A stretch of 64,000 nucleotides of DNA, from the IMG/VR virus record IMGVR_UViG_3300020582_000004. One strand, 5' to 3'. Below the pieces are notes generated by a model. The model ran no database searches. It saw only the letters and a list, made by a program, of their open reading frames with translations, and was not told the DNA's origin. The stretch comes from an uncultured virus (IMG/VR IMGVR_UViG_3300020582_000004) (lineage: Duplodnaviria; Heunggongvirae; Uroviricota; Caudoviricetes). Shown piece after piece: positions 2,920-59,424 of the stretch. The translations under genes were made by a program, and so were the position numbers. Each line of letters opens with the position of its first letter. Position 1 is the stretch's first letter.

Positions 2920-3198
2920 ATGACCTGGCAAGTTCGTGAGCACAAAGGCGTTCGCAAGATCATCGAGTCGGCGGCGCCTGCCGTGCGTCAAAAGTACGAT
3001 CTCTGGGTTGAAACAGTTCGAGCCGGCGGCCCTCAAGCGCTTCGAGCCACACCAGGTTTTCATGATGAGGCGCTCAAAGGAGCGGCAGCAGGCTTACGCT
3101 CATCTAGACTCAATAATCGTTATCGCGTCATCTATGAAGTGCACGGACAGCTTTTGGTCGTAGACGTCATCAAGGTTACGGGACAACACGATTACTAA
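2920..3198 (+). CDS. RelE/HigB-family mRNA interferase toxin
   Basis: 92 aa, basic; PGFHDEALKG...RSSRLNNRYRVIYEV...HDY is typical of the RelE superfamily; precedes an XRE gene. Confidence 0.8.
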   Translation: MTWQVREHKGVRKIIESAAPAVRQKYDLWVETVRAGGPQALRATPGFHDEALKGAAAGLRSSRLNNRYRVIYEVHGQLLVVDVIKVTGQHDY

Positions 3199-3214
3199 AG
3201 AAAGAGAAGTTACC

Positions 3215-3472
3215 ATGGCATCCATTCATGATCACAACACGATTCCAGCTCGTACGTCTGGAACTCTAACTCCTGGTAAAGCTGTAAAGATGCTTCGTGA
3301 GCTTCATGAAATGTCTCAATCAGAGCTGGCTCGTGCCTCGGGCCTTTCTCAGCCCATTATCAGTGCCATTGAACGTGGAACCACGAACGTCGGAATCGAA
3401 CGTGCAAAGCGACTTGCAAAAGCATTGAATGTTCATCCTTCTGCTATTGCATTTGCCGATGTGCCTTCTTAA
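3215..3472 (+). CDS. XRE/HigA-type HTH antitoxin
   Basis: LRELHEMSQSELARASGLSQPIISAIERG...AKRLAKALNV; toxin-first gene order as in higBA. Confidence 0.85.
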   Translation: MASIHDHNTIPARTSGTLTPGKAVKMLRELHEMSQSELARASGLSQPIISAIERGTTNVGIERAKRLAKALNVHPSAIAFADVPS

Positions 3473-4204: not shown

Positions 4205-4747
4205 CTAGTTCACGAAGTCGTAGACGAAGACCGGTGTCGAGACCGAGATGAGCTGGTCAAGAAGAGGCCCGACGCGAGCCCAGCTCCCACCTGAGAGACC
4301 AGCTCCGAGCCTCGGCGCGTGTATGCTGGCTCCAAGCTCGCGCGCGAAGTCGTCCGCGTGGCGCAGGCAGAGAGCGAGCGCGGCGTACCGAATTGGCGGC
4401 CTCCGCTCTTCCTTGCCGCTGTAGTCGGCTCCGAGGCCATCTTGTGCGATCATGTTCAAGACGAAGATATCAGGCGTGACTTGAACGAGCTGCGACTCGC
4501 CGAGAGAAAAGTCGCCCGTCATCCGAAGAATGCCTTTTGGGTTGGGCTCGACCTGTGCTGGTTTTCGAACATGATGCCAGCCTCGATAGCAGCGCTCTGG
4601 TTCGGCCCAGCGGCGCGACACGGAGACCACGAAGCCGCGTCCCCAGGCGCCCACGGTGTTGCAAATATGGATGATGAGCTTCGGATCTGCGCCTTGAGGC
4701 TTTGTGGCGTCGCCTTGAAGGTACATGATTCGAGACCGAAGCGTCAT
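4205..4747 (-). CDS. macrodomain (ADP-ribose processing) protein
   Basis: YLQGDAT...IIHICNTVGAWGRGF...NMIAQ...IHAPRLGAGLSGGSW signature. Confidence 0.88.
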   Translation of the reverse strand: MTLRSRIMYLQGDATKPQGADPKLIIHICNTVGAWGRGFVVSVSRRWAEPERCYRGWHHVRKPAQVEPNPKGILRMTGDFSLGESQLVQVTPDIFVLNMIAQDGLGADYSGKEERRPPIRYAALALCLRHADDFARELGASIHAPRLGAGLSGGSWARVGPLLDQLISVSTPVFVYDFVN

Positions 4748-4750
4748 GAT

Positions 4751-4996
4751 TCACTTCTTGCGGCGCTCTTGCCAAAGCGTGACGGCTTTCTTCATTAGCT
4801 TTTTGGCAGTCTCGGGCGTGTATTCGCCAGCCTGGTAAATGGTGCGCTTGTCTAGCTCCGACTCGCGCTTGGCCGCCGTCTCGGCTTCCTCCATGCTCGA
4901 GAACTCCCACGTTCGGATGCGACCGTTTTGGCCGTCGCAGGCAAGCCAGCCGCTGTCAATGGGAGGCTCGAAGTACCAGATAGCGAAAGTGCTCAT
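4751..4996 (-). CDS. hypothetical protein
   Basis: C-terminal part of track ORF 4751..5434, starting MSTFAIWYF; fits the gap between neighbours. Confidence 0.5.
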   Translation of the reverse strand: MSTFAIWYFEPPIDSGWLACDGQNGRIRTWEFSSMEEAETAAKRESELDKRTIYQAGEYTPETAKKLMKKAVTLWQERRKK

Positions 4997-5006
4997 CGCG
5001 AAGAGG

Positions 5007-5438
5007 TCACCAATCACCGTATGCATAGTGCGCACTCGACGCATAGTAAATGCCGACGTAGCCGCAGCCCTTGGGACAGGGTTTTTCTTTCGTGAAGAAG
5101 CCGCGCGGCCAGCGCTTGCGAATTTCATTCGTGCGCGGGTTACCCAACTCGACATCGGTTGACGGCGCCCAGTTGCCGAGAATCTTTTTAGCTTCTTCTT
5201 CGTCGAACGTGACGCCGTGATCGCAGTGCTTTTGCACCTCGTCGGCGATGGCCTTGAGCCTGTCGTCCTTGATTGCTGACTTGGTGCTGGACTCCAGCTC
5301 TTCGATGCGCTTCGCGTTCTCCGCGAGGCCGCGCTGATAGCCAAGATTATAGTCGTGGGTGCGAACCTCTCCGCCGTCTTTGCACTCGGAACAAGATGCA
5401 TTGGACGTCGGCGTTTGGCACTTGATGCAAACACTCAT
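5007..5438 (-). CDS. hypothetical zinc-binding protein
   Basis: CIKC...CSEC and CPKGCG motifs; ATGA-type coupling. Confidence 0.55.
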   Translation of the reverse strand: MSVCIKCQTPTSNASCSECKDGGEVRTHDYNLGYQRGLAENAKRIEELESSTKSAIKDDRLKAIADEVQKHCDHGVTFDEEEAKKILGNWAPSTDVELGNPRTNEIRKRWPRGFFTKEKPCPKGCGYVGIYYASSAHYAYGDW

Positions 5439-5755
5439 GCTGAAGCTCCCATCTCGATTTTGACTCCGAGCCCAACGCTCTCGAGGAAGTCAGTTACGTC
5501 GCCCTCGAAGATGCTCGAGAGCATCTCGGCAATGTCTTGTCGATGAAGCTCGTTGGCCTTTCGTATCACGTCGGTGAATCTTCCGTGAGTGACTTGCGCG
5601 AGAAACATGTGCCGAGACCAAAAGAGATTGAAGACTTCTGAATCGCGCTCGGTACGGGCCACGACGAAGAAGCTCGTCGGACCGCCGAAGGCTTCGAATC
5701 GGTCGAGCCGACCATCGCGATTAGAGAACACGAGCGTCTTGATTTTGATTTCCAT
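5435..5755 (-). CDS. hypothetical protein immediately downstream of the pentamer array
   Basis: ATG at the array edge; overlaps the next gene. Confidence 0.55.
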   Translation of the reverse strand: MEIKIKTLVFSNRDGRLDRFEAFGGPTSFFVVARTERDSEVFNLFWSRHMFLAQVTHGRFTDVIRKANELHRQDIAEMLSSIFEGDVTDFLESVGLGVKIEMGASA

Positions 5756-5775
5756 GATCCACCCCTTCCATTGCC

Positions 5776-6800
5776 ATTTTCCGGCCGCTCCTCTTGACTC
5801 CTATCCATTACGTTCCCCGCCTATCCCATCCATTCCTTTTTCCGGCCACTCCGGTCCATTCCTGTCCGTTCAATTCGGATCCGGTCCGTTCCATTCCGTT
5901 TTACGGCCAATCCGATCCGGTCCATTCCTTTACTCTACGTTCCCATCCCGTCCTTTCCATTTTCCGGCCCATCCCCTCCATTCCGGCCCTGTCCGCAACC
6001 ATCCGCTCCCGTCCTTTCCATTTTCCGGCCCATCCCCTCCTGTCCTTTACGTTCCTGTCCCCACCGTTCCTGTCCGGTCGGTTCCGCTACGTTCCAATCC
6101 AATTCCAGTTTCCGGCCGGTCCAATCCCGTACCCTACGTTCCAGTCCACTTTTCTCCTCTCCACTTTCCGGCCAGTCCTGTCCATTCCGGTCCAATCGCT
6201 CCGTTCCGCTGCCATCCCTTGCTCTCGCCTCCGTTCCTGTCCTTTCCTTTTCCGGCCGCTCCCCTTCACTCCCTTCACATCCGCGCCATTCCGCTTCCTT
6301 TATTCCGGCCAATCCAGTTCGTTCCGCGTCGCTCCTGTGCGCTCCAATCCCTTACTCCGGCCCCTCCGCTCCCGTCGCGTCCCTTCCGATCGCTTCCGAT
6401 ACGGTCCATTTTCCGGCCGCTCCGTTCCGCTGCCATCCCTTGCTCTCGCCTCCGTTCCTTTCAGCCGGCCAGTACGATCCGGTCCTCGCCATTCCTGTGC
6501 GCTCCTATCCACTACGCTCCATTTTCCGGCCTATCCCATCCAATCCCATCCTTTGCTCTCGAATCCCATCCGTTCCCCTTTGCCGGCCGCTCCGGTCCGT
6601 TCGTTTCACTTCAATTCCGGTACTCTCCACTTTCCGGCCCGTACTCTCCTATCCAGTCCATATTCGCTACTTTCCATTTACCGGCCGGTCCGATCCCTTC
6701 CAGTCCACTAAATTCCAATCCATTCCGTTTTCCGGCCACTCCCGTCCGGTCCATTACGCTCCTGTCCATTCCTGTCCGTTACGCTCTATTATGCTTTGCT
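5776..6800 (-). ncRNA. putative guide-RNA array: GGCCGG(AAA)-delimited units of (GGA-NN)n pentamers
   Basis: 17 delimiters on the + strand, CCGGCC usually preceded by TTT, at 5781, 5842, 5903 (ACGGCC), 5964, 6025, 6112, 6168, 6252, 6305, 6357, 6413, 6465, 6526, 6583, 6634, 6681, 6732. Between them lie 7-15 NNTCC pentamers. The repeat structure is directly visible; the RNA function is inferred. Confidence 0.75.
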
Positions 6801-6810
6801 CGATTAGCGA

Positions 6811-7395
6811 TTACTCTGCTGCGTCAGTCACCCGCAACGAAGCATCGAATCGAATGAGAGCGCGTTTCACGTCAGAAAGAAGATCAGCGAGCGCGCTGTT
6901 CTCTTCACTGTGAGGATGGCTAATTGCGGCAAGCTGCGCCTCGGTTGCGCCTACCCAGGACCGAAGGTACTGCGCTCTGATGCGTGCGAGGGCCACACGT
7001 TCTTCCTTCGTTTTTCGAATCTCGGTGAGCGGGCGTCTACTGGCGCCGTGGGTTTTGCTTCTCGTAAAAACGAGGGCTCTCGTTTCGACTCGAATGGTAC
7101 GCCCTGGTTCACGTGTCACGGTAACCGACACGCGAACTTCGTTCATGAGACGGCCAATCTGGCTAATCCAGTATTGGCGCGCCGCTTTCTTGACGTTAGC
7201 TTCAAGATACTGCCTGAATGGGTGCGACTCATCGGCAAGCACTGCGTCGAGCACCGATTCCGGTGTCAAAACAGTGCGCCAGTCTGCACCACCGGCCATA
7301 TCCGTAAAGATGGCCCAGGCTTCTTGAAGTTGTTCTTTGGTGTACGAACCGCGCGGAGAAAACTTCATGCGCGGATGTTTATGTTTCGTCTTCAC
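6811..7395 (-). CDS. accessory protein coupled to the RAMP-like gene
   Basis: GTGA overlap with the RAMP-like stop; LTPESVLD...HPFRQYLE...KKAARQYW...RLMNEVRV motif; basic. Confidence 0.75.
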   Translation of the reverse strand: MKTKHKHPRMKFSPRGSYTKEQLQEAWAIFTDMAGGADWRTVLTPESVLDAVLADESHPFRQYLEANVKKAARQYWISQIGRLMNEVRVSVTVTREPGRTIRVETRALVFTRSKTHGASRRPLTEIRKTKEERVALARIRAQYLRSWVGATEAQLAAISHPHSEENSALADLLSDVKRALIRFDASLRVTDAAE

Positions 7396-8231
7396 GATGC
7401 GTTCGTTTCATCGCGATGGCTTGCGCCGTTTTTCTTGGACTTCGATTTCGCACCACCCTTGACGCGTTCCATTTCCTCCGCGACCTGTGCTTGCGTAACA
7501 CCTTTGGTCTTCATCGCTGTCATGAGCGCGGGCGGGATCACGAGTCGGCGTTCGGCAGACGAGCACGCCTTGATGATGCGATCGGTCTCACTTTCGTGGA
7601 TGCCCTTGATGTTGAAGAGACCGTACTCACCATTTTTCTCTGCACGCCAGTCACCAAGACCGACAAGCTCGCCCATCGCCTGAAGAGCCCAGGTCACGTG
7701 CTCCATGGGAGTCTGGTCGACGATCACCTTGACGACGATCTCGATCATCCATTCGTCGTAACGAGGCCGCGCTCGAACGTCTGGCGTGCGATTCGACCAC
7801 GAGCCGACGCGTACGACGTCGTGCTGAAGCTCGGCCTTCGCAGCTCGCTTCGTCTTTGGGTTCAGGATCGGAGAGGTGAAGCCAAGCACACGCACTGCAC
7901 GCCTCATGGCCGCAGCATTGAGCTGCTTTCGGCTCGCTGCGACAGCAGTGAGCATGCCGGCTTTGATCCAGCGGCAAGGGATGACTTCGTCGCCGCGCTC
8001 GTTGAATGCGTGGGCATCGACGAACTCGCGCTCGAGGTCCTTGGGTTCGCGTGCAGAATCGAGCGGCGTGCCGTCTTGGCGACAGCCGACCATCTTCTCG
8101 AGCATCTCGGTGAATGACTTCTGACCGAATGCGTGAACGAGCATCGGACCACTGCCGATGAGCGCGTAACACGCGGTGTGTGCTTCGATGGACGGGAGCT
8201 TCAGATTGATCGATTTCGATTGGCTTTTCAT
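7392..8231 (-). CDS. stand-alone Cas7/RAMP-like RNA-binding protein
   Basis: N-terminal LIGSGPMLVHAF, IPCRWIKAGM (compare RAMP IPGSSLKG) and C-terminal Gly-rich loop VGLGDWRAEKNGEYGLF; AGAGGA RBS before ATG 8231 (track start 8255). Confidence 0.72.
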   Translation of the reverse strand: MKSQSKSINLKLPSIEAHTACYALIGSGPMLVHAFGQKSFTEMLEKMVGCRQDGTPLDSAREPKDLEREFVDAHAFNERGDEVIPCRWIKAGMLTAVAASRKQLNAAAMRRAVRVLGFTSPILNPKTKRAAKAELQHDVVRVGSWSNRTPDVRARPRYDEWMIEIVVKVIVDQTPMEHVTWALQAMGELVGLGDWRAEKNGEYGLFNIKGIHESETDRIIKACSSAERRLVIPPALMTAMKTKGVTQAQVAEEMERVKGGAKSKSKKNGASHRDETNAS

Positions 8232-8755: not shown

Positions 8756-9073
8756 TCATGCGGACTTCTTTGTGACTTTGACGTCGACATCGAAACCGAG
8801 CGCATCTGCCGCTCGCAGAATCGTACTCAGAGTGAGCGAACCGCCGAACTCCTTGTGGAGCACACGCTGCACTTGCGACGGCGAGGTCTTCATCATGGAC
8901 GCGAGCGCTCGAATCGAGATGCCTCGGTTCGTTCGACTCGTTTCAAAGACATCGGCAATCTGCCGACGGAGCGAGTTCTCTTGCATCGCGACACGGACCT
9001 CCGGGTCTTTGCGAGCCAGACATATTAGCGAGACGTAAGACTCGCCGACTCGTTTTGCTTTTTTCTTTTTCAT
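8756..9073 (-). CDS. XRE-family HTH regulator
   Basis: GISIRALASMMKTSPSQVQRVL...LTLSTILRAADALG. Confidence 0.8.
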   Translation of the reverse strand: MKKKKAKRVGESYVSLICLARKDPEVRVAMQENSLRRQIADVFETSRTNRGISIRALASMMKTSPSQVQRVLHKEFGGSLTLSTILRAADALGFDVDVKVTKKSA

Positions 9074-19495: not shown

Positions 19496-19974
19496 TAGCG
19501 CACCCAGTTCTTGCCGTTCCAGGTGCCCCGTACCCAGTTCTTGCCGTTCCAGGTGCCCATGTGCTCGCCGTCGTAGGACGCCTCGATGCGACCATCTTTG
19601 AACTGTGTGAACTTGAACTCGTTGATGTACGAACGCTGACGTGCACTGATGGCTTTGAGCGCTTTAGGCGGAAGCGACGTATGCGCGATGTTCCAGCTAT
19701 CAGGTGCTGTTTCGAGCAAATTTCCTAAACCTTGACGCTTGAGTGCAGCTTTAACTTTAGCTGCGCCACCACCTCGATCAACTGTCGCAATACGACCATG
19801 GTTATTTACAAATAAAGATGCGCCTGCGCGTGGCGACGGCCTCTCCTCAACGCGAAGTATGCACTGGTAGTCTGAGCGCACGTCTGTGTCGAGAATCTCG
19901 AAGTCTTCTTCCATGAGCGCATCGCCGATGACAGCGCACCACTGCTTCGCGGTTCGCGGTAAAGAGGTGGTCAT
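19495..19974 (-). CDS. shared-N-terminal-module family protein B
   Basis: TAKQWCAVIGDALMEEDF...VKAALKRQGLGNLL; ends with GTWNGKNWVR twice. Confidence 0.6.
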   Translation of the reverse strand: MTTSLPRTAKQWCAVIGDALMEEDFEILDTDVRSDYQCILRVEERPSPRAGASLFVNNHGRIATVDRGGGAAKVKAALKRQGLGNLLETAPDSWNIAHTSLPPKALKAISARQRSYINEFKFTQFKDGRIEASYDGEHMGTWNGKNWVRGTWNGKNWVR

Positions 19975-56724: not shown

Positions 56725-57762
56725 TCAGTGCAGAAGGCCGTGAATCTCGGCGTACCTACGGCGCTCGTGACGCGGAACGGTGTGCGGGATGTTTTTCTCC
56801 TGCATCAAGGTCGTGATGTTCGCGGTCTCCCAGAACTTCTCACGCGTTGCCTCGCTCGCCTCGAGCCAGAGCTTTTGTGTGAGGAGCACATCGCCGATCG
56901 GTACGCCGGAAGGCTGAATGCAGAACGAGCGAATGATGGAGCCTTTCTCATCGACCTGCTTCACGTTGCCATGAGAGCCGCGGTCGATGCGATAGCGCTC
57001 TTTCTTTCTGCCATCCGAAGAGGTGACCTCGATGTAGAAGCAATTCTTCTTTTCGAAGTCCTCGATCTGCTGCGGCGAGAGACAGAGACGCAAGAGGTCA
57101 TCGGCACGCTTTTCGGCCATCTTTGCCGCGAGCGCTCGCTTCTCGGCTTCTTCGCGCGCGCGTTTTTCTTGCTCGAGAGCCGCGAGTAGCTCGGTGTCCG
57201 ATAGCTTGCGACGCGAGTAGCGTTGAATGTTGGCCGCGTGATCGCCGGCTTCCTTGATACGCTCGTAACGATCAACCCATGCGTTCCAGGCGAAGTGATT
57301 GATGGTGTTCGTGGAAGAGGTAATCGTATTGAACGGAAAATTGTTATACGTGACAGCGCTGGTAGACGTGTATTGAATGTTCCAAAGTGGCCACGTGTTG
57401 TTCATGGTCGCCGCTCCAGTTCCGATCGTTTGCGTAATCGTATAATTCGCACAGGTGCCCGCCCATACCTCGATGATTGGCGGATACATCTCCTCGTACT
57501 TGCGACGCGCTTCGGCAATCTCCTCGTACTTGCGACGCGCTTCGGCAAGAGCTTGACGTTGCTGCAACTGTCGCTCTTCCAACTCAATACGAGCAGCAAT
57601 GACTTCACGCCGTCGCTGATCAGCGGCGAGTGAATTGATCGATACTGGCGGCGGAGGACCCGCGAGCGCGTTGATCGGCACAGGCGGAGTACCAGCATTG
57701 ATCGGCACAGGCGGAGTTGCAGCTCGCAACTCCGCAGCCCCAACAACCTGTAGGCCTGGCAT
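56725..57762 (-). CDS. hypothetical protein: low-complexity N-half, globular-looking C-domain
   Basis: TGATG-coupled to the upstream di-Gly protein; C-domain ADDLLRLCLSPQQ...RYRI...FCIQP...D.LLTQKLWLE...AN. Confidence 0.7.
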   Translation of the reverse strand: MPGLQVVGAAELRAATPPVPINAGTPPVPINALAGPPPPVSINSLAADQRRREVIAARIELEERQLQQRQALAEARRKYEEIAEARRKYEEMYPPIIEVWAGTCANYTITQTIGTGAATMNNTWPLWNIQYTSTSAVTYNNFPFNTITSSTNTINHFAWNAWVDRYERIKEAGDHAANIQRYSRRKLSDTELLAALEQEKRAREEAEKRALAAKMAEKRADDLLRLCLSPQQIEDFEKKNCFYIEVTSSDGRKKERYRIDRGSHGNVKQVDEKGSIIRSFCIQPSGVPIGDVLLTQKLWLEASEATREKFWETANITTLMQEKNIPHTVPRHERRRYAEIHGLLH

Positions 57763-58911: not shown

Positions 58912-59424
58912 TCACGACTCTTTTGATTTCTCTAAATAATTCGCAGCCGCACGAAGCCAGTCTGGCCGATCAGCAAAACGGCCCAAACCATTATTGCACG
59001 AAGAGCACAACAAGCCTCGTAAAGCATTGGTAAACAAGCCTCGTAAAGCATTGGTAATATGATCATGATCAACTGCAAGCTCGCGCACCTTATCGCGGCA
59101 CTTGCTAGTTTCCTTTCGAAAACAAATCGCACATACACCATGCTGAGCCTTCAGCATCTCCTCATATTCAGAGACAGAGATGTTGAATTTTCGACGCAAT
59201 GCAGAACGCCGATCAGCCTGAAGCGCTTGAGCCCTATTGAGTGAACGCCACTTCTGTGAGTACTTTACTGAACGGCCGTCGGCCTTCGCTGCTGCTGCAA
59301 TAGCAGCCATCTTTTCGGGATGACGACGTGAGTAATCACGACATCTCGCTCTGCATTTTTCACAAGTCTTCAGCTTGACGCCTAATGCCTTTTGCACTCG
59401 GCACCTTCTACAGCCGCCAGCCAT
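58912..59424 (-). CDS. recombination endonuclease VII-family (His-Me) nuclease
   Basis: YEEMLKAQHGVCAIC...LAVDHDH...RGLLCSSCNNGLG. Confidence 0.9.
   Translation of the reverse strand: MAGGCRRCRVQKALGVKLKTCEKCRARCRDYSRRHPEKMAAIAAAAKADGRSVKYSQKWRSLNRAQALQADRRSALRRKFNISVSEYEEMLKAQHGVCAICFRKETSKCRDKVRELAVDHDHITNALRGLFTNALRGLLCSSCNNGLGRFADRPDWLRAAANYLEKSKES

What the first reader, a model, noticed from the sequence alone, without database searches (positions are those of the whole stretch)
5776..8231. Lone Cas7/RAMP-like gene, accessory gene and ~1 kb array of (GGA-NN) pentamer units: candidate RNA-guided system with a gapped dinucleotide code
Seen: two coupled minus-strand genes (7392-8231 and 6811-7395) are followed immediately, on the same strand, by a purine-rich array with two levels of order. 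First, there is a 5-nt period of constant GGA plus a free dinucleotide. Unit 5848-5897 on the + strand reads actcc ggtcc attcc tgtcc gttca attcg gatcc ggtcc gttcc attcc. Second, 17 GGCCGG(AAA) delimiters cut the array into units; spacings are 61,61,61,61,87,56,84,53,52,56,52,61,57,51,47,51, mostly about 11+5n. There are about 160 pentamers in total, all 16 NN combinations occur, and each unit has its own NN string. That pattern indicates information content rather than a drifting microsatellite. Established: RAMP/Cas7 proteins polymerise along RNA with a fixed footprint per subunit and carry a C-terminal Gly-rich loop, seen here as VGLGDWRAEKNGEYGLF. Inference: each unit is a processed guide, one subunit grips each GGA, and the NNs together specify a non-contiguous target, possibly 2-on/1-off, which would tolerate codon wobble. 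No cas1/2/3/5/6 or nuclease is adjacent, so silencing of a competing phage or host genes is plausible. From memory, and not verified here, this resembles recently reported phage 'VIPR' systems with GGY/NN RNAs; the constant triplet here is GGA.
Basis: partly seen in the sequence, partly recalled or inferred. Interest (0 to 1): 0.96.

Follow-up and report, generated by a model that had tools for sequence, protein, structure and literature searches.

The report
VIPR system with GGA guide scaffold
A soil phage carries a version of the recently described VIPR RNA-guided gene-silencing system in which the repeating guide scaffold reads GGA instead of the usual GGC/GGU, a change the best-studied VIPR protein is reported not to accept, so it may be a natural, non-cross-reacting variant.

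Summary
Gene 7392-8231 is a Vipr: its profile finds the solved SUSP1 Vipr (E 4.6e-7), it folds as a RAMP (pLDDT 92; Csm3/Cmr4 matches) and keeps the G1/G2-reading residues. Gene 6811-7395 belongs to the accessory family found beside Vipr genes with staggered arrays. The array holds 162 pentamers with near-maximal NN entropy, split by 17 junctions. So this is a member of the published VIPR family, not a new system. What differs: position 3 is A in 155 of 162 pentamers, whereas the SUSP1 pocket is reported to exclude purines; three homologous loci share GGA, the sister clade uses GGY; Trp at the SUSP1-M72 pocket position goes with A-dominant arrays (4 of 4 versus 6 of 65 loci); junctions keep GGC. 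GGA arrays also occur in other Vipr lineages, and the papers mention non-GGY cores in figures I could not see. No target was found, no RNA run exists; NN composition gives only modest support for the 1-nt wobble skip. Verdict: new variant of a known system.

The parts
7392..8231 (-). vipr gene, 279 aa RAMP (RRM core, thumb, G-loop) with a ~70 aa C-terminal extension
   Evidence: phrog_4652 E 2e-12, the family of the wV8 Vipr (1e-96); PDB 36pp SUSP1 Vipr E 0.008 single sequence and 4.6e-7 profile; hhalign 99.0%; AF2 pLDDT 92; Foldseek Csm3 E 1.5e-6; VIA Z 12.3, rmsd 3.9, 155 aligned
7968..7970 (-). codon for Trp88, aligned to SUSP1 Met72 that lines the Y3 pocket; candidate determinant of A at repeat position 3
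   Evidence: alignment; W in 18 of 146 family members, invariant in the 8 close homologues; covariation
7620..7664 (-). G-loop V190-G204 (D194, W195, R196 = SUSP1 D177, W178, R179)
   Evidence: R196 and G204 invariant in 146 sequences
7395..7598 (-). C-terminal extension (helices 213-258, basic tail), shared with the GGY-using sister clade, absent from SUSP1-type Vipr
   Evidence: no family found (best score 0.81, lead only)
6811..7395 (-). vap accessory gene, 194 aa, phrog_15946 family, translationally coupled to vipr
   Evidence: phrog_15946 E 5e-5; same family follows Vipr in Cy-LDV1 and Gordonia phage Ecliptus; not the SUSP1 vap1 family phrog_5926
5776..6790 (-). staggered-type vrRNA array: one leader run plus 15-16 units of GGCCG-G + 5-6 nt A-rich linker + 7-15 (G/n)(G/n)A-NN pentamers; 162 pentamers
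   Evidence: units do not fold better than shuffles (z -1.1 to +1.1); no Rfam match
5781..6737 (-). 17 junctions GGCCG(G/T), 5' ends at 6737, 6686, 6639, 6588, 6531, 6470, 6418, 6362, 6310, 6257, 6173, 6117, 6030, 5969, 5908, 5847, 5786; the only place where the canonical GGC triplet is kept; putative processing signal
   Evidence: counterparts GGCCG in L003/L004 and GGCAG in L001, L065, L072, L112, L118 and in GGY arrays
6197..6417 (.). 221 nt (about four units) missing in one other soil sample, between two copies of a 42-nt block (6197-6238 and 6418-6459)
   Evidence: run X6 contig joins 6196 to 6418 at depth 12; run X4 keeps both copies, block at doubled depth

Best explanation
A phage-borne VIPR system of the staggered-array kind with a switched scaffold. 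vipr, vap and the array are probably one transcript (inferred). The array is cut into roughly 50-60 nt guides at the GGCCG junctions (inferred). Vipr protomers polymerise one per pentamer, bury the fixed triplet and present NN for pairing to double-stranded DNA with one target base skipped per repeat, silencing genes of competing phages or satellites (by analogy with SUSP1 and P. fulva VIPR; not shown here). G1 and G2 are read as in SUSP1, since H33, R155, D194, W195 and R196 are kept (shown by alignment). The third-base pocket has been remodelled to take adenine, most likely through Trp88 (correlation shown, causation inferred). Odds: VIPR family member about 0.95; works by the 1-nt-skip DNA code about 0.8; Trp88 a main cause of A3 preference about 0.5.
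For: Homology and fold. Array information content. All three homologous loci with DNA available (L003 86%, L004 60%, L001 38% identity) carry GGA/NN arrays with GGC junctions, with no shared NN run of 4 or more between loci. Staggered GGY arrays plus the same Vap family in Cy-LDV1 and Ecliptus. Survey of 114 Vipr loci (74 after removing duplicates, 69 with 8 or more informative steps): W at the M72 position gives A-dominant arrays in 4 of 4, other residues in 6 of 65 (Fisher p 2.4e-4, loci not phylogenetically independent); two more W loci below that filter also have A3 (L004 4 of 4; L064 CGA/NN by eye); sister-clade loci L045, L046, L060 use GGY. Pooled clade NN (46 runs, 413 NN) fit codon positions 1-2 best (GC-matched delta lnL 11.2 versus -7.7 to -8.7 for skips 0, 2, 3), RY over YR 140:88 (p 0.0007), strand coherence p 0.0045; 132 GGY guides show the same pattern (p 0.002). 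One sample lacks 221 nt between duplicated blocks, so the array turns over.
Against: For the window alone the codon model (2.4) does not beat an independent-base model (3.3) and strand coherence is absent (p 0.64); in L001 phase 2-3 fits slightly better than 1-2. A-dominant arrays also occur beside Vipr proteins without Trp (L072, L079, L089, L095, L112, L118), so Trp is not necessary. SUSP1 K82, needed for repression there, aligns to A98 here. No structured 3' tail as in SUSP1. The pocket mapping rests on sequence alignment; Vipr structures were not in the fold libraries.
Confidence: 0.78

Rival explanations
1. A relaxed VIPR: the third position is simply unconstrained by this Vipr (the NNNGG class already noted), and A3 reflects drift or mutational bias fixed in the array by duplication, not protein specificity.
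For: Yoon et al. report NNNGG, YNNNG and NNNNG alternatives. Mixed GGC/GGA arrays exist (L035: 46 A, 46 C). Arrays expand by unit duplication.
Against: A3 is the most fixed position (155 of 162; entropy 0.32 bits versus 0.60 and 0.95 for G1, G2), is kept in loci down to 38% protein identity whose NN are unrelated, and stays A even where G1 becomes C (L064).
Confidence: 0.12
2. The RNP binds RNA or uses a different skip length or register (for instance because of the C-terminal extension), so that it is VIPR-like in build but not in code.
For: No DNA target found under skip 1; 70 aa extension of unknown role; SUSP1 Vipr can also pair with RNA; K82 not conserved in place.
Against: Pooled NN composition fits only a phase-keeping skip; the extension is shared with GGY-using sister loci; thumb and G-loop residues are kept.
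Confidence: 0.07
3. The array is a protein-coding region on the plus strand (ORFs 5589-6857 and 5794-6711) or a drifting microsatellite.
For: A stop-free frame of 337 codons runs through the array on the plus strand, and likewise in L003 and L004.
Against: The same frame length arises in 83% of 1000 NN-shuffled arrays, because the TCC strand lacks stops; L001 has no such frame. NN entropy is near maximal and junctions are conserved across loci.
Confidence: 0.03

Closest known systems
VIPR systems, staggered-array kind (Yoon et al., bioRxiv 10.64898/2026.04.26.720920, fig. S18 legend)
   Same: Lone RAMP gene plus one accessory gene in a phage, array of pentamer repeats with hypervariable NN, units offset in register at conserved junctions; same Vap family and GGC junction as in Cy-LDV1 and Ecliptus loci.
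   Different: Scaffold GGA rather than GGY; junction GGCCG plus a 5-6 nt A-rich linker rather than a bare 4-nt GGCA overlap; Vipr with C-terminal extension. The type number (I-VII) could not be assigned: figure 5A, S16, S17 and data S4 were not visible.
SUSP1 / P. fulva type II VIPR (structures in bioRxiv 10.64898/2026.04.26.720927)
   Same: H17, R138, D177, W178, R179 equivalents kept (H33, R155, D194, W195, R196).
   Different: Y3 pocket E71/M72/C173/175 is R87/W88/V190/L192; K82 aligns to A98; vap1 family (phrog_5926) replaced by phrog_15946; no structured 3' tail; the paper says the pocket excludes purines, and GGY>GGA is among the substitutions tested in fig. S12B, where the text says GGY perturbation abolished silencing.
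Non-canonical VIPR arrays (bioRxiv 10.64898/2026.10.21.760802)
   Same: Vipr-like fold beside 5-mer arrays with a non-GGY core (21 clusters).
   Different: The text names GAC, CAC, WGT and TGH cores; GGA is not in the main text (0 occurrences), but fig. S10A could list it and was not visible.
CRISPR Cas7-group RAMPs (Csm3, Cmr4, type VII Cas7)
   Same: RAMP fold with thumb and G-loop.
   Different: No CRISPR repeat-spacer array or cas genes nearby; 5-nt footprint with gapped code instead of 6-nt contiguous pairing.

Membership tests
VIPR | Vipr protein: single-RRM RAMP with thumb and G-loop, homologous to SUSP1 Vipr | tested here: met
VIPR | Minimal locus (vipr plus a vap gene), no CRISPR array or cas genes | tested here: met
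   neighbours are small phage genes and an HTH gene; tandem-repeat scan shows no CRISPR-like array in the window
VIPR | Mostly viral or proviral location | tested here: met
   window carries FtsK, SF2 helicase, DNA methyltransferase, DHFR and many small ORFs with PHROG hits; closest viral homologue in IMG/VR
VIPR | Flanking array of pentamer repeats, fixed triplet alternating with hypervariable NN ('GGY/NN or a related consensus') | tested here: met
   162 pentamers, NN entropy 1.98/1.97 bits; same in L001, L003, L004
canonical GGY/NN VIPR (SUSP1 type II) | Pyrimidine at repeat position 3 | tested here: not met
   A in 155 of 162, GGY in 4 of 162
canonical GGY/NN VIPR (SUSP1 type II) | vap1 family and structured 3' tail on each guide | tested here: not met
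   Vap is phrog_15946, no likeness to wV8 vap1; units unstructured
VIPR | Array expressed as small RNAs that co-purify with Vipr | not testable with these tools
   no RNA holder listed
VIPR | 1-nt skip rule, skip on the codon wobble position, natural targets in competing elements | tested here: inconclusive
   no target found; pooled codon-phase signal favours skip 1, window alone weak
CRISPR-Cas class 1 | Repeat-spacer array and cas5/cas6/large subunit genes | tested here: not met

The most novel reading that the evidence does not exclude
Scaffold switching is a real evolutionary move in VIPR: a single helix-1 residue (Trp at the M72 position, arisen at least twice) flips the third-base pocket from pyrimidine to adenine, making a Vipr that ignores GGY guides. 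That would shield the phage from the orphan GGY guides with which satellites hijack VIPR (10.64898/2026.10.15.759431), give a natural orthogonal VIPR pair for multiplexed gene control, and, because the junctions alone keep GGC, expose the junction as a processing signal read separately from the repeats.
Probability: 0.3. Interest if true: 0.78.

Novelty: new variant of a known kind. Interest (0 to 1): 0.52.

Why it matters
VIPR is a 2026 discovery whose structural account says the third scaffold base must be a pyrimidine. A clade that uses adenine almost without exception, with a matching change at the pocket, is a natural experiment on how the scaffold is read, points to one testable residue, and would supply a second, non-cross-reacting compact RNA-guided DNA binder. 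The retained GGC junction gives a concrete handle on the open question of how staggered arrays are cut into guides.

Tried and rejected
Single-sequence folding was uninformative (pLDDT 40). Pfam gave nothing for Vipr and only sub-threshold hits for Vap; no solved relative of Vap; Atlas hits for Vap were unnamed viral clusters and for the C-terminal extension a lead only; weak HTH/RHH hits for the extension (phrog_1373 E 0.0099, VapB26 E 0.46) were not accepted. An early reading of the hmmsearch alignment put SUSP1 E71/M72 on G92/M93; the profile alignments put them on R87/W88 and were preferred. No whole genome is held for the window, so host-wide target search was impossible; the host is unknown. 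No RNA holder listed. Close homologues were not found in IMG/VR by the single protein or in GTDB; a second GTDB scan gave three distant loci. A scan for the array pattern in IMG/VR gave 20 hits, of which 2 (one element, L035/L042) were real arrays. Target searches: 106/108, 118/120, 122, all negative; the perfect skip-3 scores of L001 guides are self-matches to L092, the same record. In the tree the row 'Ecl' was translated out of frame and was ignored; L092 was dropped as a duplicate of L001. No sigma-70 promoter match or useful terminator. No earlier notes of this scan matched. A plus-strand ORF and a microsatellite reading were rejected. No complex prediction was run.

Full report
Observation. 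The minus strand carries a 279 aa gene (7392-8231), a 194 aa gene overlapping it by GTGA (6811-7395) and, 20 nt further, a purine-rich kilobase. Its autocorrelation at lag 5 is 0.50 against 0.315 +/- 0.014 in 200 shuffles, and no other part of the window has this period. A parse gives 162 pentamers: G1 146, G2 132, A3 155; positions 4 and 5 have 1.98 and 1.97 bits and all 16 dinucleotides occur; GGA makes 114, GGY 4. A count that does not favour A gives A in 80 of 85 GG-x-NN-GG steps. A long plus-strand frame is a by-product: 83% of 1000 NN-shuffled arrays have it too. Seven folded stretches are no more stable than shuffles, and Rfam has no match. The window is identical over 12,217 nt to a metagenome contig (L002), so the array is not a one-off assembly error, and soil runs X4 and X6 cover it.

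The protein. It hits phrog_4652 (E 2e-12), the family of the Felixounavirus wV8 Vipr (1e-96), and the only PDB sequence hit is the SUSP1 Vipr (E 0.008 alone; 4.6e-7 with an 8-sequence profile). A 146-sequence profile aligns to the wV8 Vipr at 99.0% probability. With that alignment AlphaFold gives pLDDT 92; Foldseek ranks Csm3 first (E 1.5e-6) and VIA-align gives Z 12.3, rmsd 3.9 over 155 residues, followed by Cmr, Cas7-11 and other RAMPs. The second gene hits phrog_15946, as do the genes after Vipr in cyanophage Cy-LDV1 and Gordonia phage Ecliptus, whereas SUSP1-type vap1 is phrog_5926. Those two phages have GGY/NN arrays whose register shifts at GGCAG junctions. The window looks like part of a large phage; its host is unknown.

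What is known. I read the whole text of 10.64898/2026.04.26.720920 (term search of its supplement), parts 1-2 of 6 and passages of 10.64898/2026.04.26.720927, part 1 of 8 and passages of 10.64898/2026.10.15.759431, and passages plus one methods section of 10.64898/2026.10.21.760802. No figures were visible. VIPR systems are a Vipr, a Vap and GGY/NN guides that read double-stranded DNA with a 1-nt skip; seven types, staggered arrays, and NNNGG, YNNNG and NNNNG alternatives are described. In SUSP1, H17, D177, R138 and W178 read G1 and G2, and a pocket of E71, M72, C173, residue 175 and R179 is said to exclude purines at position 3; GGY>GGA is among the substitutions tested, and the text says GGY perturbation abolished silencing. 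The COMPASS paper reports 21 clusters with non-GGY cores and names GAC, CAC, WGT and TGH. Searches for GGANN, ANNGG and GGA NN found 0 occurrences in the four VIPR papers listed, but supplementary figures may show such cores.

What differs here. The G1/G2 readers are kept (H33, R155, D194, W195, R196), while the third-base pocket reads R87, W88, V190, L192. All three homologous loci with DNA (L003, L004, L001; 86, 60 and 38% identity) have GGA arrays with GGC junctions and unrelated NN strings. These proteins form a clade of 9 (support 0.97) whose sister clade shares the C-terminal extension but lacks Trp88, and the three sister loci fetched use GGY, so GGA is derived. Across 114 Vipr loci (74 distinct, 69 with at least 8 informative steps), Trp at this position goes with A-dominant arrays in 4 of 4 and other residues in 6 of 65 (p 2.4e-4, not corrected for kinship). 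A second Trp lineage gives GGA (L065, 24 of 24) and CGA/NN (L064, read by eye). Trp is not necessary: L072, L079, L089, L095, L112 and L118 are A-dominant without it, and L035 mixes C and A. In every A-dominant array inspected the junction keeps GGC: GGCCG in the window, L003 and L004, GGCAG in L001, L065, L072, L112, L118. GGA arrays are thus not unique to this locus but recur in several Vipr lineages.

Code and targets. No target was found. An indirect test asks whether NN look like codon positions 1-2, as a 1-nt skip on the wobble base predicts. For the clade (46 runs, 413 NN) that model is best after GC matching (delta lnL 11.2; independent bases 5.6; skips 0, 2, 3 between -7.7 and -8.7), purine-pyrimidine order beats the reverse 140:88, and guides are strand-coherent (p 0.0045); 132 GGY guides behave alike. 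For the window alone the signal is weak (2.4 versus 3.3; coherence p 0.64), and for the six other GGA loci coherence is absent (p 0.59). In run X6 a contig joins 6196 to 6418 across a duplicated 42-nt block, while X4 keeps both copies: the array gains or loses units by recombination, though a contig cannot prove absence. No RNA run is listed.

Mechanism and verdict. Most likely this is a working VIPR: one transcript, guides cut at the GGC junctions, one protomer per pentamer, NN paired to DNA with a 1-nt skip, silencing of competing elements. Homology, fold, array structure and covariation are shown; expression, processing, skip length and targets are inferred from SUSP1. It is a member of the VIPR family but fails the canonical GGY test, so it is filed as a new variant. 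Interest 0.52: the system is published, yet the adenine scaffold runs against the published pocket model and points to a one-residue experiment and a possible orthogonal tool.

Noticed in passing
L004:462-1217: A second, divergent vipr-like ORF (G-loop GVWRPE) lies upstream of the main vipr, with a GGA array between them and another behind; no vap gene between vipr and array.
   Followed up: partly
L064:3650-4000 (same element L107): Array with CGA/NN repeats and GCAGTAA junctions beside a Trp-bearing Vipr: first scaffold base switched as well.
   Followed up: partly
L035 (same element L042), about 1.5 kb between vipr and vap: Very long staggered array mixing GGC and GGA about equally, beside a Vipr with Gly at the pocket position.
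   Followed up: partly
L162:3750-4100 and 4660-5260: Mixed, A-leaning VIPR arrays with GGCTGTA junctions on a 174 kb contig of a Desulfatibacillum MAG.
   Followed up: no
window 2920-3472 (+): RelE-like toxin and HTH antitoxin pair on the strand opposite to most genes.
   Followed up: no
window 8756-9073 (-): Cro/C1-type HTH gene two small ORFs upstream of vipr; not conserved beside the L003 homologue as far as seen.
   Followed up: no
window 19502-19558, 57488-57548, 59009-59057: Perfect two-copy tandem duplications of 30, 30 and 24 nt inside or between genes; may be natural or assembly artefacts.
   Followed up: no
L005, L009, L144, L145, L007: Cultured Gordonia, Mycobacterium and Pseudomonas phages annotated as hypothetical proteins carry Vipr genes with GGY arrays, offering culturable systems for tests.
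   Followed up: partly
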